From Octopus vulgaris (Eukaryota): a stretch of DNA of 64,000 nucleotides. How positions within the stretch are numbered: position 1 is the stretch's first letter; every line of letters begins with the position of its first letter. The notes under the pieces are model-generated. The model was not told the origin of the DNA and made no database searches. It saw nothing but the letters and a program-made list of their open reading frames with translations. Made by a program: the position numbers and the translations under genes. Positions 1,352 through 62,981 of this stretch are shown here, one piece after another. The DNA lies in the NCBI GenBank assembly GCA_951406725.2, contig OX597814.1, forward strand, positions 102,300,001 through 102,364,000, read 5' to 3'.

Positions 1352-1364
1352 TATATATATATAT

Positions 1365-1422
<58 letters not shown>
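1351..1422. repeat. (TA)n microsatellite
   Basis: Directly visible. Confidence 0.95.
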
Positions 1423-1424
<2 letters not shown>

Positions 1425-2570
1425 AGCAGACAATGGAATGGCAATGGCAAATGTCACTCTATGTGTGCTTCGTCGACTTTGAAAAAGCATTTGACAGCGT
1501 AGACAGACAGACAATCTGGGACATCTTACGACACTATGGTATGTCAGAGAAGATCGTGGGCATTATTCGATTACTCTACGAGGAGTTTTCTTGCCAGGTC
1601 ATCCATGCTGGGAGATTGTCGGAGGAATTCAGGGTCAGCACGGGAGTCAGACAGAGCTGTTTATTGCCACCGCTCCTGTTCCTCGTCGTGCTGGACTGGG
1701 TCACCAGGACGGCCTACGCTACCTCCGGCAAAGGTATTCAGTGGACACTGATGAACAAGCTGGAGGACTTGGACAACGCAGATGATCTCGCGCTACTGTC
1801 ACATCGCCTGCAAGACATACACGATAAGGTAGACCACCTGACAGAAACTTCACGGCGAGTGGACTTGAGGATCAGCCGGGAAAAGACAAAAGTGCTGCGT
1901 ATCAACAACAAGTAGGAAGAGCCAATCACAATCGAGGGGGCACCTGTAGAGGACGTTAGTGAGTCTGTCTATCTTGGCAGCAAGATCAGCAAATCAGGTG
2001 GATCAGACGAGGACATCACGGCAAGAAGCAAGAAGGCTTGGCAAGCCTTCGCTATTCTTCAGCCGGTATGGAAGTCCAATGCCATCTCAACTCGAACTAA
2101 ACTCCGCTTATTTAGTTCAAACATAAAATCTGTGCTTTTGTATGGCTCTGAAATATGGAGAGCCACCTGCAGCAACTACAAGAAAATCCAGACCTTCATC
2201 AATAAATGTCTCCGGCAGATCCTCCATCTGAAGTGGTTTGACAGAGTGCCAAACATCGACCTGTGGGAAAGGGCTAACCAGGAGTCCATACATGCTCAGA
2301 TTAGATGAAGGAAATGGAGATGGATCGGACACACACTGCGGAAAGAACCCTCAAATGTGACACGACAAGCACTTGACTGGAACCCGCAGGGGAAAAGGAA
2401 GCGAGGACGCTCGAAGCAGACATGGAAGCGGAGCATTTTGGACGAGCTCAGGACCACCGGCCCGACATGGGAAGCAGCCAAGAAACACGCCAATGACCGC
2501 AAAAAGTGGAAAACAACTGTTGAGGCCCTATGCTCGACAGGGGACAAAAAGGATTAAGAAGATTATATGC
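1421..2570 (+). mobile_element. 5'-truncated RTE-clade LINE (RT and C-terminus, several stops)
   Basis: FVDFEKAFDSVDR, TGVRQSCLLPPLLF, DLDNADDLALL, then LLYGSEIW and ALDWNPQGKRKRGR..TW..WKTTVEALCS, followed by a short taagaaga tail. Confidence 0.92.
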
Positions 2571-2680
2571 ACACATAGAATTCACACATTGACGCTGCTG
2601 TTAATGTAACTGTGTCGAAGCCTTTTCAATAACAATAACCAATTGATAGCATTAATAGCTATTATATATATACACACATA

Positions 2681-2909
2681 AGGCGGTGAGCTGGCAGAAA
2701 CGTTAGCGCGCCGGGCGAAATGCTTACTGGTATTTCGTCTGTCGTTACGTTCTGAGTTCAAATTCCGCTGAGGTCGACTTTGCCTTTCATCCTCTCGGGG
2801 TCGATAAATAACGTACCAGTTTTGCACTGGATCGATGTAATCGACTTAATCCCTTTGTCTGTCCTTATTTGTCCCCTCTATGTTTAGCCCCTTGTGGGTA
2901 GTAAAGAGA
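2681..2909 (+). mobile_element. tRNA-derived SINE, family A
   Basis: Head ggcggtgagctggcagaa..gagttcaaattcc (A/B-box-like), body gcctttcatcct..ggggtcgataaa..gtaccag, tail ttgtcccctctatgtttagccccttgtgggt. At least 7 copies in the window. Confidence 0.88.
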
Positions 2910-11660: not shown

Positions 11661-12104
11661 TTATATATATATATATTCAAGAGAGACTCAACTTGACAAA
11701 CTAATATCATTTCCTCGCGTGTAGAATTATAAATGCAGGCTTTTATCCCTTTTATTGGCTTGCTGAATGTGATCTGACCCGAGGCAAAGGAAAACAACTA
11801 TACAAGTAGCTCGAAGAGATGCTGTCTCCACTGTTCATCGTCTCTACCACTAATTATAACTTTCTCTTAACTGACATGCGTTTTACTTGTGCTGCAGCAA
11901 GACCTACTCATTTTTATCATCATTCTTAATATGTCCCACTTCCAAATCATTCTTCCTAGAACAGTTTTTGGACTTCTTCAAGCAAGAGTTCAGTTTTTTT
12001 TTTGTTTCTTGCTTAAAAATGCAGTATTCTTTTTTTTTTGTCTTGAATATTACGATCTTGCTATATTTAATGGTTTTTATTATTTTGGCACAAGGCCAGC
12101 AATT

Positions 12105-12265
12105 TTCAGGAGAAGGAGAAGTCGATTACTGGTTCTTATTTTATCGACTACGAAAGGATAACAATGTCGACCTCGGCAGCATTTAATCTCAGAACGTAAA
12201 GGGCCAAAAGAAATGCTGCTAAGCATTTTCCCCGGCGTGGTAACGATTCTATTAGCTCGCCGCCT
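12105..12265 (-). mobile_element. SINE family A, degraded
   Basis: Reverse copy of the ggcgagc..agaatcgtta..gccgaggtcgac head and body. Confidence 0.75.
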
Positions 12266-13165
12266 TTTGCTATATTTCATCGTACTCTTCTGATAAGGGT
12301 GTCGCTATCATTCTTAAATTATTTCCTTAGCTAATTTTTTTATATATAGCTATGCAAATTATCTTTAACAAAATACATTCTGTTGTTTTTTTCTTCTGTC
12401 TGTATAAATATCTGTCCATTTATCAAAGCAAGTGTGGGATGACTATGCTTCACTGATGAAGTTTAAGAAGACCGAAATGTGTCCTGCTGTCACTTTAACG
12501 GCTTATAAAGATCAAATTCACACACACACACCACACAAATTCGATTTTTTTACTGAAATTAATTCTTCAGTTTTTGAAATATATCTCCTACTCCTTGAAT
12601 GTAACTAACAATTACCTGTTGATGCTTTGTTTTCTTCCTTCAGCTAAGAGGCAGATTTCAATTCAGTTCATTGAGAGTTTTATCCCATCTCAATCACAGT
12701 TTTTTTTATTCATTTTTTAAAACTAGGCAGTTTGAAACTTCGAATCTTGGTAGAATTTCTCGCGTAGAACACGGTTTACTCTGAACGTTATTGGCAAAAT
12801 TTTGTATTTTAGAAGTTATTTCGTGTTGAAGTTGTTGTATTTGGGTAATTTCAAGCAATCAACGACATGTATTTGGTTGAAGAAAGCTACTGCCGTTTGC
12901 GATAGTAATCGAAGAGGAACAGCTTCCAGGTATCACGACTCTGTTCGAAGAATCACAGCTAGCTCTTTTGTTGTTGACGTATAATGTAGTTTGAAAATGC
13001 CTTATTTTACAACTATGAGATGTATAATGGAATTGAAGGCTTGTGATACCTGTGGAGTATCTCCTTCTCTCTGTAGTCATAAGGAAGTTAGAGCGGGATA
13101 AGAGTCTGCTGTGAGTTGGCAGCTTCGCAGTGTTTCTCAGCGTAAGCGAGAAAAAAAGAAAGAGA

Positions 13166-14781
13166 TGATTTTTTTAATTACCCACAAGGGGCCAACAAAG
13201 AGGGGACAATACAAACACGTGGGGACATATAAAAACGAAAAAATAAATAAAAATGAAAAAAAAATTTAAATTAAAATGTATGATATACATGAATGATACA
13301 ATGAAAATGAAAATGAGCTACTTACTCCACCTCAAGCAGCCTCACTTGCTTCCTTTTATCTTTTAAATTCCGAGTCCTTTAAAATGTCTATACCATATTT
13401 CTCGGTCAGTTCCTCGTACTTTAAATCACAATTCACCTTCCAACACTCATAACCCCTCTTGAATTTCAATATTTCGTCTTTTTGGCTTTCGGACACCAGG
13501 ACACATGAGTGCTATCCATCAATGTTTGTCCATCCTTTGACATGGACAAATCTTGCAGTCTTCCATTTTGTTATCTTATTGAGCAATTCCTTGTCCACAG
13601 CTTCAACCATCATGCACGCGAAACAATTTTCAGTGGAAGAGTGAGTTTGTTGATCCTTTTGATTTTGTATTCCTTTTTCTCTTCCTTTGTGTATGAGGGG
13701 AATGGGTGGGTTTGGTGTCTATGGGGGAGGGTGGGTCAGAGAGGTATGGGTGGGTGGGTATGGTTTGGGGTTCTACTTCACTCTGCCCTTTCCTCTTCCT
13801 TTTTGTTCCTTTAGCTACCATCCACTGTTCTTCGTTTCTCTTTTCTTCCTGTTGCACCTTCTCCGGCTCCTTTGCAACTTCCTCCTGACTTCTCTGCTTC
13901 TGTAGAGGGCAGTGAGCTCTAATGTGACCTTTGTGGCCACATTTAAAGCAACGAGGGGTTCTACTCTCCACCCACACTCTCAACACTACATCTCCAATGG
14001 CCACCGTTTCAACCACATTTTCCAGTGTTTCTTCAGTGGCCTGTATGATCAGGTCCAATATTTGGCCTTTCCATACTGAATCTTCTGTTTTCGTGGCTTG
14101 GAGGACAGCTATTTCTTCTTTACTTCCTAGAAGAAAAGCTGCCGCAACCCAAACCACATCTATTTCCGGTGGGATTCCCTCCACTCTAATTCTGGAAGTC
14201 AGTCTTCCAAGATAAGTGGGTAGAAGGACCACTTTATCCGTCTTTACTATGGTTACTGCGAGTTCTTCTGCTTTCCCTTCTGACTTGAAATGAACCACAA
14301 TTGTTTCGTATCTGTTTCCTCTGGCAAACAGAGCACAACGTCTTTTCTATTATTTCTGCCTCAACATTTTCAATTTTCCTTTCTTCCACTGAATACACCT
14401 TATATATTACTGTTTTCTTACCCATTTCTTCCAATACTCTCTGTGGTGGTGACAACTTAACGTTACCACCCCTACATGCCATTTTCTCGTATTTCTCCAT
14501 GTCAGGTCCACCTCCTTTTTTGTGACTTCTGTTACTTCCGCAAAAAATGTTCTTCCTTAAGCACTTGTCTATTCTATCAACTGCTCGTACGAGCTCCTCC
14601 TCCGAAGAGAACAATTTGTACCCACTAAGGTTCGAATAGAACATGTTTCTTACTGTTGACATTGCTGACCCTCCTCAAGGCGGAGAGAAAGCACAACCAG
14701 AAAACCGCTACAGAGCAGCACAAGACAGTCGACTACTCCTCACACAATCAGTAAACACATCAGCACGATACGAACTTTATG
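13166..14781 (-). mobile_element. Apparently full-length ORF1/gag-only non-LTR retroelement (HAL1-like architecture) with ~20-bp TSD
   Basis: TSD agcgagaaaaaaagaaagaga (13145-13165) / agcgagaaagaagaaagaga (14782-14801), ~120-nt 5'UTR, one ORF, T-rich 3'UTR and A-rich end. No endonuclease or RT. Confidence 0.75.
13356..14662 (-). pseudogene. Disrupted ORF1-like CCHC zinc-knuckle protein (~435 codons; 2 frameshifts, 1 stop)
   Basis: Segments 14662-~14300, 14298-~13650 (LRVWVESRTPRCFKCGHKGHIRAHC; WMVAKGTKRKRK) and a third frame ..CFACMMVEAVDKELL..DG*HSC..KDSEFKR* ending at 13356. Resembles L1/Tx1 ORF1. Confidence 0.75.
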
Positions 14782-16339
14782 AGCGAGAAAGAAGAAAGAG
14801 AGAGAATGTCTTAATTCTCCTGCTTAAATTGTCATTGCCGGCGAGAGTCTCGCTGTCGTCTCGCGCATGGCAAATGGTTGCAGGCGAGATCTCGCTTCTG
14901 TCTCGGACATGGGAATGGCTACCGGCGAGATCTCGTACAAAATGGCTCTGGTTTCTTGTGCCTCGCTACAGATGTATTGTTATTGTCATGATTTTATCTT
15001 ACTATAATCAACAACAAACATTTCGTCAATATAAAAGTCTTTATTAGATAAAAAAAAGCATTATCAAAATATGAAGGTAAAACAAAACAAATAGCGGCTT
15101 ATTACACCGGCTGACTATAAAGGAAGAAAGGATACAGGTGGTTCGCTCGCCATACGAATACAACAGAGTGGTGACATTTAGTAGAGATGGCCCGGAAGTT
15201 GTTCCTCTTCGATTTCTATCGCAAACAGCAGTAGCTTTCTTCAACCGAATCCACGTCGTTGATTGGCTGAAATTACCCAAATACAACAACTTTAACACGA
15301 AATAACTTCTAAAATACCAAATTTTGTCAAAGACGTTCAGAGTGAGCCATGTTCTACGCGAGAAATTCTACCACTATTCGAAGTTTTAAACTGTTTAGCT
15401 AAAAAAAAAAAAAATCATGAAAAAATCTGTGATTGAGATAGAATAGATCCGAGTTTTGTTGCGTATAACATTCAATACGTAACCGCTTACGGGATTAAGC
15501 TCAAGGTTAGACTTAAGGCCGATTTAATGAAATCAATGATTGCTGAATAAACTCGTATTTTTTCAATGATGTTGTTTTGTTTAGCCCATATAATTAAATA
15601 ATAATTTCAATTTATCAGCAAATACAATATTTGTTGTTGTTGTTGTCGTCGTCGTTGTCGGTGTTGTTTAGCCCAAGGTCAGTCGTTTCTTGATCAATGT
15701 TGACTTGAGAGGTTAAAATAGCAATAATTTCGATGACTTGCATATTTATTCCTTAATAGGTTGGAACGCAAATAAGCTAATCGCGATTAGCAACTTTTTT
15801 TGTTTGTATTAAGAATAAATGTGCTAGTCGTCGTTTCGATTCTCGCTATTCACCGAACAGATAACGATTTATTAACAGTAATTTAATTTTCTACAACTGT
15901 AAGTCTACCTGATCTCTGAATTGGGGCGTTTTCCCATAAATTCCAAACCTTCTCCCTGAAAGACATGCTAACTTAAATATATTCTTTTATTCTTTTACTT
16001 GTTTCAGTCATTTTACTGCGGCCATGCTAGAGCACTGCCTTTTAGTCGAACAAATATTGTTATTGCTGTTGTTTAAACCCCGGGTCATCCCTGATCTACA
16101 TTTGAAGCATTCCTGCCGTGATTAATGTTCTTTTTTATTTTTGTTTTTCATTATTTTACGCGTTTTCCAAAATTTTACTCGTTTTAATATCAATCAATTT
16201 TTTTCTCTTATTTGCTTTCCTTGTAGTTTTTCATGTCAGTTGTAAAGGTGAAGAGGGTTAACTTGGACGCTGTTAAGTAATGGCGATGTTTAGTGTTTGT
16301 ATGTGGTGATAAGTTTTGACTGTTTTTTTTTAATAAGGA

Positions 16340-17015
16340 CTAGCAGTATCGCCCGGCGTTGCTCGGGTTTGTAAGGGAAATAACTATATAAGCATTTTTA
16401 GAGAGCTATAGCAAAAAAATTAGCAAAAGAATGCATTAAAAATGGAATAAAAAAATTATGGTAATTTTTTTTTTAATCGTTGACTCATCGTAGACATTTT
16501 TAGAGAGTTACTTCCCTTATATAATAGCGAAAAAATGCATTAAAATGGAAAAAATGATTGTAAATTTTTTTTTAAATCGTAGACTCATCGTAGACGCTTT
16601 CTTAGCCATTTCTGTTTTGGTGTCTTCAAGCCATGAAGTCGTTGTTCTAAAAGAACGCTGGTCTCCTTGACAACGCTTTACGACGTTGATTTCCTTACAC
16701 TCCCTTCCCCACAGCTTCACGAGGGAGGGAAGAAGGGGGAGAAGCAAACAGGTGCAGGTGTGACCATGGACGCCAACTCCGCCGCCATCGACACACGAAA
16801 AATTATGCATTAAAATGGAATAAAAAATTATGTTAAATTATTTTTAAAATCGTAGACTCATCGTAGACGCGCGCTAATACCCAGACGGGCTCGATATGAA
16901 TCACGACTATAAGATACCCGAATTTGGTTAAACTGCACCACAAAATGTGGGAGTAGTTAGGCATCTAAATCGAAGGGGACAGACACTCACACAACTACAG
17001 TTTTATATATAGAGA
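16340..17015 (-). mobile_element. Non-autonomous Helitron
   Basis: Minus strand A|TCTCTATATATAAA...cccgagcaacgccgggcgatactgCTAG|T. The empty site is visible in the inverted paralogue at 18604-18621. Confidence 0.92.
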
Positions 17016-17119
17016 TAATTGATTGATAACGAATCTTAACACAATATATAGACAACTTGAAGTGGAATTGGACGCCATAAGAGAAACAGAGAGAGGAAAG
17101 AGGAGAGACAGCGTAGCAA

Positions 17120-17407
17120 AGGTTTTGTCTGACTGTCATCCTGTACTCCCCTTGTTGCTAGCGAAATGGTGTGTGCCGGCTGTCTGAGCAACTGGTTGCT
17201 TTTAATGGCGGAACAAACAGGACAAAAAGATTACAAAAATAGCTATTCTCACTTTGAAACTAAGAATTTTGCAAATCTTTTTATATTACGGAACGCCCCG
17301 CGCTCTCATGTATCCATGTTTAAAATTTCAGCGCGATCGGATGAACAATATTCGAGTTATAAGCGCACAGACAGACAGACAGACAGAACGGATTTTATAT
17401 ACTAAGA
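17120..17407 (-). mobile_element. Helitron-like 5' fragment
   Basis: Minus strand starts a|TCTTAGTATATAAAATCCG..(tctg)n, typical of a Helitron 5' end. No 3' CTAG found. Confidence 0.5.
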
Positions 17408-19624
17408 TTATATATTAGATTATAATTCGTATTTCTCTTCAACTATTTTTATGTATTTGTGTGTCTGCGTTTGTCCCTACATCATCGCTTGACAACTGAT
17501 GTTAGTGTGTTTACGTCCCCGTAACTTAGCGGTTCGTCAAAAGAGACCGATGGAATAAGTACGAGGCTTAAAAAAAAAGTCCTGGGGCTCGATTTGTTCG
17601 ACTAAAGGCTTATGCTCCATCATGGCCGCAGTCAAATGATTGAAACAATCATTATTAAAATAATGAAAGAAAGATTACATAAAAGTGGTCGTAATTTTTG
17701 TTGTTTGTTTTCGCAAAGAAAAGAAAGACAAGAAATCCATTGGAATGCATAATCATTTTATAACATGAAAATGATTGGGAAAGTCGATTCAAATGATTGA
17801 AACAATCACTATTAAAATAATGAAAGAAAGATTACATAAATGGTGGTCGTAATTTTTGTTTAAACCCCGGGTCATCCCTGATCTACTTCAAAGCATTCCT
17901 GCTGTGATTAATGTTCTTTTTTGTTTTTGTTTTTCATTATTTATCGCGTGTATCTATGACTACACTATCTAATGTGTTACTCCTGCTTTTAAGATAAATG
18001 GAGATTTATCTGTTATTCAAGCATGTCGGGCGACTACGTGCATCTTCCCTAGTTGGCTCGAAAAGAGATAAAAATAGAAAGAGATTAAGAGAAGATCGAA
18101 GTGAGAAATTCCACAGTCTCTGTCTTCTTTATAGAAGTCTATATAGGTTAGTTAATTGGGTGAAACGGGGTTACGTATGCTTAAAAAGTACAAGAAATCT
18201 CTCGTGTTACGTGAATACCGCGATCCTGATAAGTTTGCTGTAACGAGAAATCAATTTTCCCAATCATTTTCATGTTATAAAATGATTATGCATTCCAATG
18301 GATTTCTTGTCCTTCTTTTCTTTGCGAAAACAAACAACAAAAATTACGACCACTTTTATGTAATCTTTCTTTCATTATTTTAATAATGATTGTTTCAATC
18401 ATTTGACTGCGGCCGTGATGGAGCACCACCTTTAGTCGAACAAATCGAGCCCTAGTACTTATTCTTTGTAAGCCTAGTACTTATTCCATCGTTCTCTTAT
18501 GCCGAACCGTTGCTATGTTGTATCTCTTCTTTCCTCTCTCTGTGTCTCTTATGACGTCCAATTCCATTTCAAGTTGTCTATATATTGTGTTAAGATTCGT
18601 TATCAATCAATTATCCTTATTGAAAAAAAAAAGCAGTCAAAACTTACCACCACATAGACTCACCAAACATCGCCACTACTTAACAGTGTCCAAGTTAACC
18701 CTCTTCACCTTTACATCTGACATGAAAAACTACGAGGAAAGCAAATAAGAGAAAAAAATTGATTGCTATTAAAACGCGTAAAATTTTGGGGTTAATAATC
18801 TTAATCTTTAGTTACAGTTTCTCATTCAAACTACATAACAGGCAGAATTGTCGGATTAAGACAGTAGAGTGTTTTCAGGGAGATTTGGCTGCTATTTCTA
18901 CCAGATCTACTACAATATAGAGGTCTCTTTCATTGGCTTATACATATATACATAAAATTGAAATAATATACTTAAAGCAACAAGCGTCAAATATAAAAGC
19001 CAAGGTCCATGCAGTGTCATGGGCCAAAAAAATTTCCAACGTCTTGCCTAATACGAGCCCAGAGCACAATCTCTTACAGTATTTCAGTATTACCTTTCTA
19101 TTGTAATGTGAGATACTGTCCCATATATGTATATTCCTTACGCATTCCAAAACCGAGTTACAGATTTTGATGTATGGGGTATCAAAAGATTCAGTACTAT
19201 TTCGGCTACAAATTAAACTTAATTTCCATTTACATGTTTGCATTTCAAAGATTTAACATTGTCTTTTCTATAAACCAACTATCGTAAACATTTTATATGA
19301 TGACATCACATTTTCTATATGCGTGTGTACCTTAAAAGACATCAATCATCACGACACACATCTTCACTCACTACTTCTATCTCTCTTTCTCACCCTCTTT
19401 CTCTCTCACATACACGCACGCACACACATGCATACACACACGTCCATTTCATATAGATATACGTACATTTTTCACTTTCTTTCTCTGTTCTTTTCGCTTT
19501 CTCTTCTTTCAATTTCTGCTCTCTTCAAATAAATCTTTGCGGATACAACTGCTTACAAAAATAGGGATTAATGTATAATTTCTTTCTATGTTCATAATTT
19601 TTTGTTTACAACATTGGAAAAAAC

Positions 19625-23784: not shown

Positions 23785-23950
23785 GCAGCGGAGATAGTCG
23801 ATTAAATTGACGCCAGTACTTAACTGGTACTTTATTTTATCAACCCTCGGAAATATTAAAGCAAAGCCGACACCAGCAGAATTTGAACTCAGAACATAAA
23901 GACTCTAAAGAACTACTGCAAGGTATTCTTGTCACCGACAGCCTAACGAT
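23785..23950 (-). mobile_element. SINE family A, degraded
   Basis: ctggtacttt..tcaaccc..gcaaagccgac..atttgaactcagaac. Confidence 0.7.
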
Positions 23951-40345: not shown

Positions 40346-40669
40346 TATGGCATGTTGGGTAAGTATCTTTACAGTAACCTTGAGTTTACATGAAGCCTTG
40401 TGAGGAAAACTGAGTAGACAGAAACCCAGCAAATTTATTGTACGCATAATTTGTAAGTCCAACATTGTCACACATACATTGTATCATGCTGATTCAGCTT
40501 GGGACATATGTTAAGAGTACACTTGTCTGTGGAGTCCTCAGCCACTTAGATGTTAATTTAACAAGATGAACATTTAGCCCAGTGAAAAACTGAGTGCTGT
40601 TTGTGAAAATCAATGAAGCATCAACTAAATGTTTATATTTCTGTATGGGAGATGTTTGGTGTACATAGA

Positions 40670-40900
40670 AGGCGGCGAGCTGGCAGAAACGTTAGCACGC
40701 CGGGCGAAATGCTTAGCAGTATTTCGTCTGCTGCTACATTCTGAGTTCAAATTCTGCCGAGGTCAACTTTGCCTTTCATCCTTTCGGGGTCGATTAAGTA
40801 AGTACCAAATTACGCACTGGGGTCGATATAATTGACTTAATCTGTTTGTCTGTCCTTGTTTGTTCCCTCTGTTTGTAGCCCCTTGTGGGCAGTAAGGAAA
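40670..40900 (+). mobile_element. SINE family A, full length
   Basis: High similarity to 2681-2909. Confidence 0.88.
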
Positions 40901-50774: not shown

Positions 50775-53120
50775 TACAATATGTTACATTACTCGGTAGT
50801 CAAGATAAAACTCTGAGTTTCAGATGCCGAAGTGGAAATCCACAACACCATCTCATCGGTTATCTGGCTATTTGAAAACGTTATGAAAAAATATACCGTT
50901 AAAAATGAAGGGAAATTACTCTGTTATAACTCTGCTTTGCCTGCGTACTTATACATTGCTCGCATTTTTCGTCATAAAAATTATATAAAAATACATAAAA
51001 ATATATAAAAATATATAAAAATATATAAAATCTTCTTGGGACATAACACAGAAAGCATGTTCTATCCGTTTTCTTTAGGGGACCAAAAACGTAACAGAAA
51101 TTTAGTCACATGTGGGCATGATCCGAAAAGTTCTGTCCTTGTATTTAGACATGTGGTAGGGTCTAAGCTGCTTTTCCAGATAAGCCATCTCTCCATGTCG
51201 CATAAACCGCACCTTCCGCTGCCGTTAGTATAGGGCTTACATCTGGCCAAAATCTTCCATTGTATGTTATAATCGACACCTTTATCTCTTAAAGACCAAA
51301 TATGATTGGATAATTGTGTCGCTTTTCTTTTGTTCCAGTGCCTAAAGCTCAAAGTGTGGTTATTGAACCTGGCCTTGAAATTACCCTCTGTCAGGCCCAC
51401 GTATTTCTTCGTCGAAACGGTGTCTTTAGTGGTTATAGAGTTTACGGTAGCTTCATATATGATGGTCTTGGACATGCAAGCTCCATTTAGCGGGCACAAT
51501 TCTTTATTCCTGCATGAACAGCTGTTTTCTTCTTGTGTTTTTTGTATGTTATGATTGATTATGTTTTTAAAATTGGTAGTTGAACTAAAACTAATTTTTA
51601 AATTGTGTCTATTGAAGAGTTTCCTATAAGCATGGTTAACTGGAAAATGTCTATCTATCAGTGCTAGGAAATATTTACCTATATTGAAGGCCACCTCGGG
51701 TGAGTAAGGGGGCGTAAACCAGATGACCTTCCTATTTCTATTATTCCTTTTCCTTATTGTTGGGCTGGTGATAGGTGTATATTTTATTTTTCGCTAAAAC
51801 CACTATCTTTTAAAGCTTTATTATAAACTGGGGCAACGCTATTGGAGATGTCCTCATTAGATGAGAGGCTAGAAATCCTCTTACTAATATTTTTAACTAA
51901 ATTTTTGAATACTATAGGGGGATGGCATGAACCTACATTAATATAACTTAGTCTATCATTGGGCTTCCTATAAGGCTTATAAATATTATTATTAAGATCT
52001 AAGGAAACGTCTAAGAAATTGACAACCGTCAGGTTAGTGTCTATAGTTATACTAAGTCCGAAGTGTTTCATTAACTGGATAATATCCTTCCTAAAACGAT
52101 CTTGTGCTGGTCCATTTGTATTAGCTGTTAAGGCGAGGGCATCATCTTTGTAGATGGCGAAATGTACGTTAGGGAATGTCTTACCGAAGGTATCTAGGAG
52201 AAAGAGTCCAATTAGATCACAGATGCCTGCCCCATCATATGAACCCATGCTCACATCGAAAGCGCCCTCCGTGTCGGTGTTTTTTACCCACTTTGCATTC
52301 TCACTGAAAAGTAATGTCTTTCTAGCATGGAAGATTATATCCTTATCATTGGTACTAATTTCTATGAAGTCACTAGCGAAGATTAGGGCTTTATCTAGCA
52401 GTTCTTTAGAGATAGAGGCATAAAAATCAACAATATCAAATTGTGTAAACCTCGCTTTTTTCTTATTCTTAATAGCTTTAAACCAGTCTACAACTTCTAT
52501 ACTATTGGACCATTGCACTAGCCTAGTATCGGTCTTAATTTTCGTATTTATTTTATCTAAAATTTCTTTGCTAATAATCCCTAGTTCTGACTTGGCTGGG
52601 TTGATAAGCCTACATTTAGGGTTGGAAAGGAAGTTTTCTTTGTGGTCTTTAATAGTAATAAAGGCCTCTTTTTGGGGGAGGGTTTCTATTTTTTTATCTA
52701 ATTTAAGTTTAGCGGCGATGACGCTAGCTTCTTTATTAATTTCGTTATATGTCTGTGCCCTAGCCTTAGTATAATTATTAATGATGCTGTTGTGTAAGAG
52801 TTGTGTGTATTTGCTGTTATCTACCAGGTATAAGTTCTTGGTTTTATCCGAAAAAAGTGCTTTTTTCTTGGAGCTTTTTATATGATCAATATCTTTTTTC
52901 AATTTATGTTGGAAATTGTTAAAAGACTTACGAAACTTTATTTTGCTCATGATCTTCAGCAGGTCCGCTTCGAAATCTTCCAAGCCTTTAATCCTAGGAG
53001 GGAATTTTTTGGATTTTATCCGATAGAAAATGTTTTCCTTGGTGTTCGCTTCTGTGTCAAAAAAGAAAGCCTTCCATCTCATACGCTTAATTACATCAGT
53101 AATTTTTTGCAGAAGTTTCT
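50775..53120 (-). mobile_element. Near-intact, 5'-truncated Penelope-like retroelement (RT + GIY-YIG), probably Naiad-type
   Basis: RT: RMRWKAFFF, CRLINPAKSELG, QFDIVDFY, MGSYDGA.ICDLIGL, YKDD. EN: CSCR..CPLNGAC, IIYEA..KYVGLTEG.FKARF, C.LC..E, ELFGSCPH. Hammerhead motif in the 3' terminus. Sits between (TA)n tracts. Confidence 0.92.
51062..53120 (-). pseudogene. PLE RT-GIY-YIG polyprotein with one frameshift at ~51786
   Basis: Restoring one A in gaaaaataaaat joins the two ORFs via EKIKYTPITSPTIRKRNNRNRKVIWFTPPYSPEVAFNIGK. Confidence 0.85.
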
Positions 53121-53144
53121 TATATATATATATATATATATATA

Positions 53145-54330
53145 GGGAGAATTCACAAAAAAAACAGAAGATGAAGACAGGTGGTGTAGACAACAAACAG
53201 ATGTATTAGTTTAACTCTTGGGAAGTGAAAAAGTTTTTAATGTTTCGAGCCTATGCTCTTCTACAGAAAGGAACACAGAAAGAAACAGGGAGAGAAAATA
53301 AAGAATGTATAGTGGCTAGCAATCTATCATGGCGAATGCCAGACAGAGGGGATCACACAGGAGAGTTAGGAAGGAGAGATAATAAAGTAGTGGTGATCCC
53401 AAAAAGAAGGTGTGTGTGCGTGTGTATAAGAGCATGTATGTGCATGTGGAAGTGGGATGATGACCTTGTTGTATACGTGTGTGCATGTGTGTGTGGATGA
53501 AGATGTGGGTGCTGGGAAGTGGTCAGTGCTAGTGTGTGCATGTGGTGTGGTGTGATATGGTATTGTGTGGTATAGTAGTGTGTGGTGTGGTGATGTGGGG
53601 GAGGTGAGAGTGTGGAAAGCAAGGGTGGGGTATGGATTAGGTTGAGGGTGGGGGTAGAGGTGAGGTATGTGTAAGGGATGGGGTGGGGGTGAGATGGGAT
53701 GGATAGGGAAGGTGGGGTTAGATTGTGTAGGGGTGGGGTTACGAGGGAGGGGTGATGATGAAGGTGAGGGGAAATGTGAAACAGGAGAAAACGGGGCAGG
53801 TGTGGGGCGAGAGAGCAGATGCACAGTCTACGGAATGTGCTCTGGCAAGGGTGGTGTGGATAGTGGTGAGGGGATATCCATGTAGGAAGAAGTGGCGAGC
53901 CATGAGTTGAGACTGAATCTCAAAGTCATGGTCGTCACTGCAGAGCCTGTGTAGACGGTGGAATTGGGAATAGGGGATGGAGAGCTTGGTGTGTTTGGGG
54001 TGGGAGGAGGAGAAGTTGAGGTATGAGTGTGAGTGTGTGTTGGTAGTAGATGGAGGTGGTGAGAGTGGAGCGATGAATGCTGACCGAAATGTCAAGAAAG
54101 GAGACAGAAGTATCAGAGATAGTACAGGAGAAGTGGAGGGCAGGATGGAAAGATTTGACAAAAGAGAGGAAGGAGTCTAGATGTTTGTGGGAGAGTGAGG
54201 TTGCACCAATACAGTTGTCAATATAATGGCCATATAGCTCAGGAGTGGGACCAGTGAAACTTGAGATTATTTGGGCCTCAATGTAGCCAACAAACAGGTT
54301 CATATAGTTGGGGCCCATTCTCGTTCCCAT
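53145..54330 (-). mobile_element. Second Penelope-like element (Neptune-like), degraded RT C-half plus pLTR
   Basis: MGTRMGPNYMNLFVGYIE..YIDNCIG..FHPALHF..SFLDISVS..SSSHPKHTKLSIPYSQFHRLHRLCS, with terminal repeat carrying gtagaagagcataggctcgaaacatt. Confidence 0.88.
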
Positions 54331-54333
54331 ATA

Positions 54334-54559
54334 CAGGGTCTCTACAAATTACCTTTATAATTTGAAAAATTTAGAGAAAAAAATAAGAATAACTCAGCAG
54401 AGTTTACTGGGAAACATAGGCAAATAAATAAAATTTTATTAGAAATACCAGAACACTTCTATGTGGGCTCCATTGGTTGCACACAACCTGCTGAGTTGTT
54501 CTTTTTTTTTTGTCTTTTCTGAATTCTTCAAAGTGTAAAGGCAATTTATGGACACCCTG
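54334..54559. mobile_element. Tc1/mariner-type MITE
   Basis: ta|cagggtctctacaaattaccttt / aaaggcaatttatggacaccctg. Partial second copy at ~32133-32250. Confidence 0.7.
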
Positions 54560-56587: not shown

Positions 56588-56796
56588 AGGAAGCTGGCAG
56601 AATTGATAGCATGCTGGGCAAAATGCTTAGTGGCATTTCATTTGCCCTTACATTCTGAGTTCATATTCCACCAAGGTTTACTTTGCCTTTCATCCTTTCA
56701 GGGTCGATAAAATAAGTACCAGTCAAGTACTGGAGGAATGTAATCGATTTACTTCTTCTCCCAAAGTTTCTGGCCTTGTGCCAAAATTTGAAACCA
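56588..56796 (+). mobile_element. SINE family A head/body with an alternative 3' tail
   Basis: Body as at 2681, but ends ..tctggccttgtgccaaaatttgaaacca. Confidence 0.75.
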
Positions 56797-57070
56797 GTAA
56801 TCATGGGAAAAGGGATGATGTGAAAAATATCATTGGCAGTTACAAAACAACAACACTAATTTTTGGTTAGATTTGTAAAGTAGCTACAAATCACTTACTA
56901 AAAAAAAGCTTTGATCCATTGATGCTGTAAAATCTCTATCAGGAAAGATAAGGTAACATCTAAACTTCAGAGTATCTTAACTTCAGAGCCCAAACCAGGT
57001 CTTTAAATATGTAACCATTTAAGGAACCTGTTTCTATACTAAATCTATTTCGAAGTAAAAAGACTAAATT

Positions 57071-61036: not shown

Positions 61037-61230
61037 GGTGAGCTGGCAGAAACGTTAGCATGGGTGAAATGCGTAGCCGCATTTCTTCTGCCACTATGTT
61101 CTGAGTTCAAATTCCGCCGAGGTCGACTTTGCCTTTTATCCTTTTGGGGTCGTTGTAATGGACTTAATACCTATGTCTGTCCTTGTTTGTCCCCTCTATG
61201 TTTAGCCCCTTGTGGGTAATAAAGAAATAA
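61037..61230 (+). mobile_element. SINE family A
   Basis: Matches 2681-2909 including tail ttgtcccctctatgtttagccccttgtgggtaataaagaaat. Confidence 0.88.
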
Positions 61231-62612: not shown

Positions 62613-62762
62613 TATATATATAATTAATTCAAAAAGCAGAGACAGTCTTCATTCAGTATCTATCTGCCAATTCCACTACAAGGCTTTGTGTGACTCAAAG
62701 TAGTGGGACTGGGCCCAAGATCATGTAGCTGAGAAGTAAACTTCTTTTTTTTTTCTTTTTTC

Positions 62763-62981
62763 CTTATTGCCCACAAGGAGCTAAACATAGAGGGGACAAA
62801 CAAGGACAGACAAAGGGATTAAGTCGATTAGATCGACCCCAGTGCATAACTGGTACTTAATTTATCGACCCTGAAAGGCAAAGTCGACCTTGGCGGAATT
62901 TGAACTTAGAACGTAAAGACAGATGAAATACTGCTAAACATTTCGCCCGGCATGCTAACGTTTCTGCCAGCTTGCCGCCTT
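62763..62981 (-). mobile_element. SINE family A inserted in a degraded SINE B
   Basis: Reverse complement of 2681-2909. Confidence 0.88.

What the first reader, a model, noticed from the sequence alone, without database searches (positions are those of the whole stretch)
13145..14801. ORF1-only retroelement whose 3' tail matches a tRNA-SINE family: a candidate three-member parasitic retroposon system
Seen: a 1.6-kb minus-strand element bounded by a ~20-bp TSD, with 5'UTR, one decayed ORF of ~435 codons containing a CX2CX4HX4C knuckle, and no endonuclease or RT. Its last ~45 nt (ttgtcccctctttgttggccccttgtgggtaattaaaaaaat) closely match the tail of SINE family A (ttgtcccctctatgtttagccccttgtgggtaataaagaaat at 61188-61229; also ~2870, ~40860, ~62765), including a small gccc-cttgt-gggt hairpin. 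Known: SINEs share 3' tails with the LINE whose RT mobilises them, and ORF1-only derivatives of L1 (HAL1) exist. Inference: an unseen L1/Tx1-type LINE mobilises both a protein-coding half-LINE and a SINE through one 3' recognition signal. The element may supply its own RNA chaperone with an unrecognised C-terminal domain. I am not aware of this being described in cephalopods.
Basis: partly seen in the sequence, partly recalled or inferred. Interest (0 to 1): 0.8.

Follow-up and report, generated by a model that had tools for sequence, protein, structure and literature searches.

The report
Octopus half-LINE sharing a SINE's tail
A decayed 1.6-kb jumping gene, likely from an octopus, keeps only its RNA-packaging-type gene and ends in the same short tail as a local SINE repeat, so both likely borrowed the copying enzyme of one full-length LINE that was not found here.

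Summary
Between two copies of a ~21-bp target duplication lie a ~120-nt leader, one broken ~435-codon ORF (RRM-like fold, one CCHC knuckle, extra C-terminal segment; four frame switches, one stop), a 190-nt T-rich trailer and a tail matching the 3' end of four SINE copies (31 of 34 nt in the core). There is no endonuclease, RT or LTR. The named homologues checked are all from octopods. New: the element sits inside a ~1.1-kb host with 255-bp inverted arms, and database gene model P0004 shows the same ORF between the same host flanks inside a Helitron, a context absent from this window. So the composite recurs, either by site-specific insertion (as Tx1-clade LINEs do) or as a passenger of the host. 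The proposed hairpin is not supported. No partner LINE and no DNA of a second copy could be fetched, so 'family' and 'three-member system' remain inferred. Best reading (0.55): an ORF1-only non-autonomous LINE of the HAL1/HeT-A/Ag-Sponge kind, probably Tx1-type. Main rival (0.27): a one-off deleted LINE spread by its host. A shared, sequence-specific L1/Tx1 tail in an animal SINE would be the unusual part.

The parts
14781..14801 (-). 5' copy of the target-site duplication (TC/TTTC-rich; may extend ~14 nt further, to about 14816)
14663..14780 (-). 5' untranslated leader, about 120 nt
   Evidence: sequence
13356..14662 (-). Decayed ORF1-like gene, about 435 codons, four frame switches and one stop
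13960..14220 (-). Predicted ferredoxin-like/RRM-like domain (model residues 43-129)
   Evidence: AlphaFold pLDDT 80-96 over this part; best Z 8.8, many ACT/S6/RRM ties; weak RRM hits
13909..13950 (-). Single CX2CX4HX4C zinc knuckle
13359..13640 (-). C-terminal segment of about 90 codons after a low-complexity linker; stop at 13514
   Evidence: matches P0004; homology to the relatives' C-terminal domain suggested by position only
13166..13355 (-). T-rich 3' untranslated trailer, 190 nt, directly after the ORF1 stop
   Evidence: sequence
13170..13214 (-). Tail shared with the SINE; secure core about 13177-13209
13145..13165 (-). 3' copy of the target-site duplication
12681..12930 (.). Left inverted arm of the host element (likely non-autonomous DNA transposon, about 1.1 kb without the insert)
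   Evidence: 86% over 255 columns to the right arm
15191..15445 (.). Right inverted arm of the host element
2674..2907 (+). SINE copy with the shared tail
40663..40900 (+). SINE copy with the shared tail
61037..61229 (+). SINE copy with the shared tail and an exact 16-bp TSD
62755..62981 (-). SINE copy with the shared tail

Best explanation
This is a dead copy of what is likely an ORF1-only non-autonomous LINE ('half-LINE'), probably of the Tx1/L1 group: it carries one broken ORF1-like gene and no endonuclease or reverse transcriptase, and its RNA would have been copied into the genome by a full-length partner LINE, not found here, that likely recognises the 3' tail it shares with the SINE. 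Steps. (1) Shown: leader, one ORF1-like gene, T-rich trailer, SINE-type tail, TSD. (2) Inferred: origin by internal loss of ORF2 from a two-ORF LINE, keeping ORF1 and the 3' trailer. (3) Inferred from the known role of ORF1p: its RRM-like plus knuckle protein packaged its own RNA in cis. (4) Inferred: partner ORF2p supplied in trans did target-primed reverse transcription from the tail into a TC-rich site of an inverted-repeat DNA element; AATTAA at both the tail end and the target edge could have helped priming. (5) Inferred: the SINE took the last 35-60 nt of the same LINE lineage's trailer and used the same enzyme. (6) Open: recurrence at the same host site arose by target preference or by later movement of the host.
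For: The ORF is homologous along nearly its whole length to a large set of ORF1-like proteins (343 clusters at E<=1e-3); of 22 looked up, all 13 that name an organism name an octopod. Fold RRM-like plus CCHC; a relative's nearest Atlas clusters are CCHC proteins and ZCCHC3-like proteins at 0.87-0.90, a lead only. The stop is followed directly by a 190-nt T-rich trailer and tail, with no ORF2 piece seen: a clean cut at both ORF2 borders is what ORF1-only families look like and is not expected of most random deletions (inference). Only the tail is shared with the SINE; the element has none of the SINE head or body. TSD lengths agree: about 21 bp here, 16-20 aligned columns at 4 of 6 SINE copies examined. 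Tx1-clade LINEs are reported to target non-autonomous DNA transposons and (TC)n/(TTC)n/(TTTC)n tracts (PMC4494074, passages), and O. vulgaris has 80 L1-Tx1 families (PMC13282606 supplement row). P0004 holds the same ORF between the same host flanks (83% over 36 aa upstream, 12 of 14 aa downstream) inside Helitron domains that are absent from this window. Fourteen of 24 listed runs hold 0.21-0.65 of the stretch's words, including four assemblies of only 48-95 million letters at 0.31-0.49, above the 0.25 that host flanks alone could give: indirect, unlaid sign of a repeated sequence.
Against: No partner LINE was seen and no second ORF1-only copy was read at DNA level. P0004 is a gene model that skips the stretch between the ORF's end and the downstream flank, so an ORF2 could lie there unmodelled. 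The one close relative found shares the host site, so distinct insertion sites are not shown. The tail's identity to the SINEs (74-85% over 47 columns) overlaps SINE-to-SINE identity (80-93%), so a captured SINE end is not excluded. SINE copies show no TC-rich target, which fits poorly with one strictly site-specific enzyme. The hairpin is unsupported. No intact close homologue of this ORF was found; the clade cannot be fixed without an RT.
Confidence: 0.55

Rival explanations
1. One-off deletion plus passenger spread: a normal two-ORF Tx1/L1-type LINE inserted once into the inverted-repeat element, lost ORF2 during or after insertion, and the host element then copied the remnant around. The SINE would still owe its tail to that LINE, but there is no third self-propagating member.
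For: The only close relative found has the same host flanks in a different neighbourhood. Both known copies are broken, at partly different places. No intact close homologue.
Against: The loss removes ORF2 cleanly between the ORF1 stop and a T-rich trailer. Same-site recurrence is also what target-specific Tx1 elements give (PMC4494074).
Confidence: 0.27
2. Chimera: an ORF1-bearing RNA (LINE 5' half, or a transcript of a domesticated ORF1 gene) was joined to the end of a SINE by template switching or by read-through into a SINE fragment, and inserted once by whatever LINE moves the SINE; the ORF1 and the tail then come from unrelated LINEs.
For: Tail identity lies within SINE-to-SINE divergence. 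This SINE head and body occur with two different tails in the window, so tail exchange happens here; tail exchange in SINEs is documented (PMC5786205, passages).
Against: The match stops after 35-60 nt with no SINE body, and a 140-nt T-rich stretch sits between the stop and the tail, as in a native 3' trailer.
Confidence: 0.14
3. Assembly artefact: a collapsed or mis-joined repeat dropped ORF2.
For: Repeat-rich region; no reads could be examined across the junction.
Against: TSD and host arms are coherent; the frame runs to a stop and into a trailer without a visible join; a separate record has the same order of parts.
Confidence: 0.04

Closest known systems
HAL1 (half-L1) of mammals
   Same: Non-autonomous, encodes only ORF1p, thought to need ORF2p in trans (PMC5753468 and PMC3627910, passages).
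   Different: Here ORF1 is of the RRM-like plus CCHC type with an extra C-terminal segment; the tail is a specific sequence shared with a SINE, whereas mammalian L1 recognises poly(A) (PMC3747384). Family status untested here.
HeT-A (Jockey clade) and Ag-Sponge (CR1 clade)
   Same: ORF1-present bipartite non-autonomous LINEs (PMC5786205, passage).
   Different: Different clades; that passage names no Tx1-derived or mollusc example and no SINE sharing their tail.
Tx1L in Tx1D (Xenopus); Tx1-Mar and SINEU in Mariner-N4 (crocodilians); Kibi/Koshi
   Same: Tx1-clade retroelement inserted in a non-autonomous DNA transposon or a TC-rich tract; a SINE thought to be moved by Tx1 (PMC4494074, passages).
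   Different: Those LINEs have ORF2; for SINEU-1 no LINE sharing the 3' end was found, the link rests on target preference. Here the link is a shared tail, the SINEs show no shared target, and the RT is unseen.
ZmSINE2/3 with LINE1-1_ZM; SINEX-3_CR with L1-1_CR
   Same: tRNA-SINE sharing a ~50-80-nt tail with an L1-clade LINE (PMC3747384, passages and Table 1).
   Different: Plants and algae; those tails form a hairpin with compensatory changes, which is not supported here; no ORF1-only member described in the parts read.

Membership tests
ORF1-present non-autonomous LINE (HAL1/HeT-A/Ag-Sponge kind) | Encodes an ORF1-type protein only; no EN/RT | tested here: met
ORF1-present non-autonomous LINE (HAL1/HeT-A/Ag-Sponge kind) | Insertion by TPRT: TSD, LINE-like 3' end, no LTRs | tested here: met
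ORF1-present non-autonomous LINE (HAL1/HeT-A/Ag-Sponge kind) | Many copies with the same ORF1-to-3'UTR junction at independent sites | tested here: inconclusive
   repeat status suggested; one relative at the same host site, junction not visible; no DNA of other copies obtained
ORF1-present non-autonomous LINE (HAL1/HeT-A/Ag-Sponge kind) | ORF1 kept under purifying selection while active | not testable with these tools
   needs DNA of several copies
ORF1-present non-autonomous LINE (HAL1/HeT-A/Ag-Sponge kind) | Autonomous partner with homologous 5' part and 3' end | tested here: inconclusive
   no EN/RT family in the 34 longer hits scanned of 150 listed; only P0004 among proteins of 677-2000 aa (weak search); ORF2 would normally be a separate protein
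Tx1 clade | RT phylogeny places ORF2 in Tx1 | not testable with these tools
   no ORF2 available
Tx1 clade | ORF1 with RRM-like domain(s) and CCHC knuckle (recalled; not unique to Tx1) | tested here: met
   Atlas lead
Tx1 clade | Frequent target preference (DNA transposons, TC-rich tracts) | tested here: inconclusive
   site is TC-rich and in an inverted-repeat host, same host in P0004; two observations, possibly one event
Stringent SINE/LINE pair | Shared sequence at the extreme 3' ends | tested here: met
   between SINE and this element; the LINE itself unseen
Stringent SINE/LINE pair | Conserved stem-loop in the tail | tested here: inconclusive
   single-sequence folding gives no consistent structure, 4 of 5 z-scores near zero; too few copies for covariation
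tRNA-derived SINE (SINE2) | tRNA-like head with pol III A and B boxes | tested here: inconclusive
   box-like motifs conserved (box consensus recalled); no ARAGORN or Rfam tRNA hit
LTR retrotransposon or provirus remnant | Long terminal direct repeats, short TSD | tested here: not met
   no terminal direct repeat beyond the ~21-bp TSD

The most novel reading that the evidence does not exclude
Octopods host a four-layer parasite stack: a Tx1-type LINE with sequence-specific ('stringent') 3' recognition drives both an abundant SINE and a protein-coding half-LINE family whose ORF1p carries an undescribed C-terminal domain, and the half-LINE homes into an inverted-repeat DNA transposon that spreads it further. 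It would be an animal L1/Tx1-group SINE/LINE pair with a shared tail, of which Ohshima's 2013 table lists none, and a Tx1-derived ORF1-only family.
Probability: 0.3. Interest if true: 0.68.

Novelty: new variant of a known kind. Interest (0 to 1): 0.45.

Why it matters
SINEs make up 11.6% of the O. vulgaris genome (PMC13282606), and the papers read name no partner LINE for the octopus SINEs. This element points to an L1/Tx1-type partner and to the likely recognition sequence. If confirmed it gives an animal case of sequence-specific 3' recognition in the L1/Tx1 group, which bears on Ohshima's open question of whether stringent or relaxed recognition is ancestral in L1-clade LINEs (PMC3747384), and a natural pair of parasites of one enzyme, one with and one without its own ORF1p, for asking what cis ORF1p buys. 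If it is a one-off deletion it is an ordinary fossil whose only use is to name the SINE's likely partner.

Tried and rejected
No whole genome is held. Tail pattern: 0 matches in viral and prokaryotic collections. ORF1 alignment scans: 2 metagenome loci, both knuckle-only and unrelated on inspection; 0 of 102 viral candidates; 7 prokaryotic loci matching only the 16-aa knuckle, not followed up; two alignments were too divergent to scan with. Word-indexed protein searches over 130-417, 238-760 and 677-2000 aa gave only P0001, P0002 and P0004. C-terminal segment: a profile of 7 relatives did not detect it; hhalign probability under 1%; Atlas first hit 0.90 with 96 shared features, no family; the relative's C-terminal part folded poorly (pLDDT mostly under 60) and was not searched. 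Foldseek gave no match at E<=0.001; PDB sequence search hit only knuckles and low-complexity stretches. Rfam over 13300-15600: 3 weak chance-level hits, no ribozyme or snRNA head. Earlier scan notes: nothing in 5 look-ups. Literature searches returned no paper whose listing or read passages describe an ORF1-only LINE in cephalopods; Repbase, Dfam, the O. vulgaris repeat library on Zenodo, Bao and Jurka 2010 (not held) and Ohshima and Okada 1994 were not seen and may already hold it. The O. vulgaris transcriptome supplement was unreadable (84 characters) and 4 of 8 files were not searched; tail motifs were absent from the supplements of PMC5786205 and PMC4824008 as far as searched (one file not searched). 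Rejected: LTR/proviral origin (no LTRs); chance tail match; the hairpin as evidence.
Full report
Check of the observation. The minus strand reads, from 14801 down: a TC-rich 21-mer, a leader of about 120 nt, an ATG at 14662, coding sequence to a TAA at 13356, a T-rich 190-nt trailer, and a second copy of the 21-mer at 13165-13145. The two copies agree in 19 of 22 columns; with neighbouring bases the local alignment reaches 36 columns, a score met by 2 of 3000 random 70-nt pairs from the window. That extension overlaps the A-rich end of the tail, so the TSD is 21 bp or somewhat over 30 bp, and the last dozen bases of the 'tail' may be target or priming microhomology. The ORF spans about 435 codons; relatives show that it changes frame near 14550, 14500, 14330 and 13670 and has a stop at 13514. 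It has one CCHC knuckle and no endonuclease or RT family. There are no LTRs.

The tail. The element's 3' end matches 61183-61227 at 87% over 46 columns (E 9.5e-8 within the window) and its core at 31 of 34 nt. The 16-nt core occurs five times with up to three mismatches against 0.31 expected: once here and at the 3' ends of four copies of one ~230-nt SINE. The element shares nothing else with the SINE. Over 47 columns the element is 74-85% identical to the four SINE tails, which are 80-93% identical to each other: slightly outside the SINE cluster but not separable from it. Folding gave no consistent hairpin. The same SINE head and body also occur with a second tail at 56592 and 12269. A/B-box-like motifs are conserved, but neither ARAGORN nor Rfam called a tRNA.

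The protein. The 238-aa open piece matches 343 clusters at E<=1e-3, the weaker ones partly through the knuckle alone. Of 22 proteins looked up, 13 name an organism, all octopods: O. bimaculoides, O. sinensis, O. vulgaris, Argonauta hians; the window is therefore very likely Octopus DNA (inference). Named relatives are 31-59% identical in the core, so they are other families, not copies. The model (mean pLDDT 79.5) has a ferredoxin-like domain at residues 43-129 that ties among ACT, S6 and RRM structures (best Z 8.8; Foldseek nothing at E<=0.001), followed by the knuckle. That layout is the ORF1 type I recall for Tx1/L1-group LINEs, but it is not unique to them; an Atlas search with a relative lists CCHC and ZCCHC3-like clusters at 0.87-0.90 (lead only). 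Several relatives end in an 80-90-aa domain after a low-complexity linker; two hand-picked groups of them align at hhalign probability 80%, E 1.4e-5. The window's C-terminal segment sits in the same place and ends in a similar short motif but did not align significantly. None of the 34 longer hits scanned carries an EN or RT family, which says little because ORF2 is normally a separate protein.

The surroundings. The element lies between inverted arms at 12681-12930 and 15191-15445 (86% over 255 columns); without the insert this host is about 1.1 kb, the size and shape of a non-autonomous DNA transposon (inference; ends and superfamily not resolved). The closest long hit, P0004 (1135 aa, no organism given), contains in order Helitron N-terminal sequence, a translation of the upstream host flank (14970-14863, 83%), the ORF core and C-terminal segment, the downstream host flank (13068-13027, 12 of 14), and a PIF1 helicase. 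Its Helitron parts have no real match in the window (one E 0.046 hit). So the same host-plus-ORF1 composite exists in another neighbourhood. As a gene model it cannot show whether ORF2 is absent there. Public runs under five organism labels and 12 studies hold parts of 12950-15150; 14 of 24 rows hold 0.21-0.65 of the words and four assemblies of 48-95 million letters hold 0.31-0.49, more than the 0.25 taken up by host flanks.

How it most likely works. Shown: anatomy, TSD, shared tail, host, recurrence of the composite. Inferred: a two-ORF LINE lost ORF2 but kept ORF1 and its trailer; the RNA was packaged by its own ORF1p and reverse-transcribed at a nick by a partner's ORF2p that recognises the tail; the SINE took the same tail. 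The clean join of stop to trailer favours a selected ORF1-only family (0.55) over a one-off deletion spread by the host (0.27), a chimera with a SINE end (0.14) or an artefact (0.04). The TC-rich site in a DNA-transposon-like host matches what is reported for Tx1-clade LINEs (PMC4494074, passages), but the SINE copies, whose flanks show direct repeats of 16-20 columns in 4 of 6 cases (two of them with other tails, one in a TA/CA tract), have no such target, which argues against one strictly site-specific enzyme.

Comparison with what is known. ORF1-present non-autonomous LINEs are known from the L1 (HAL1), Jockey (HeT-A) and CR1 (Ag-Sponge) clades (PMC5786205, passage); HAL1 kept ORF1 coding for tens of millions of years (PMC3627910, passage). 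The element works like these; membership is met for anatomy and untested for copy number and partner. Ohshima's table of SINE/LINE pairs (PMC3747384, Table 1 read) has no mollusc row and no row naming Tx1, and the text names L1-clade pairs only for maize, sorghum and Chlamydomonas. For crocodilian SINEU-1 no LINE sharing the 3' end was found. Other papers were seen as passages only (PMC5753468, PMC4824008, PMC4758252, PMC7245038, PMC11203168, PMC9115989, PMC3414825, PMC10294476). Ten searches showed no description of this element; Repbase and Dfam were not checked.

Verdict. A real feature, correctly described apart from the hairpin; a probable new variant of a known kind. Interest 0.45.

Noticed in passing
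window 56592-56800 (+), 12067-12269 (-), 23796-23903 (-): The same SINE head and body with a different 3' tail (two copies; the third is partial). Both tail types contain CCTTGTG. Suggests tail exchange and a second partner LINE.
   Followed up: partly
window 12681-15445: Host element of about 1.1 kb with 255-bp inverted arms; no other copy in the window; ends, TSD and superfamily unresolved.
   Followed up: partly
proteins P0002, P0062, P0040, P0042, P0055, P0018, P0046, P0078: A conserved 80-90-aa C-terminal domain in this octopod ORF1 family with no Pfam hit at E<=0.001 in the members scanned; fold not obtained.
   Followed up: partly
protein P0113: O. bimaculoides gene model joining this ORF1 family's N-terminal part to a C2H2 zinc-finger array; either a mis-joined model or an exonised ORF1.
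   Followed up: no
window 51062-53205 (-) and 53739-54348 (-): Two Penelope-like fragments by appearance: a 473-aa RT-like ORF followed by a 243-aa ORF with a weak GIY-YIG hit (E 0.013), and shorter RT-like pieces.
   Followed up: no
window 1352-2308 (+): Broken RT fragment (Pfam RVT_1, E 2e-12), RTE-like by recalled appearance.
   Followed up: no
window 16069-18789: Nested inverted repeats at 89-96% identity (e.g. 17530-17789 with 18249-18509), probably a younger foldback or MITE-type element.
   Followed up: no
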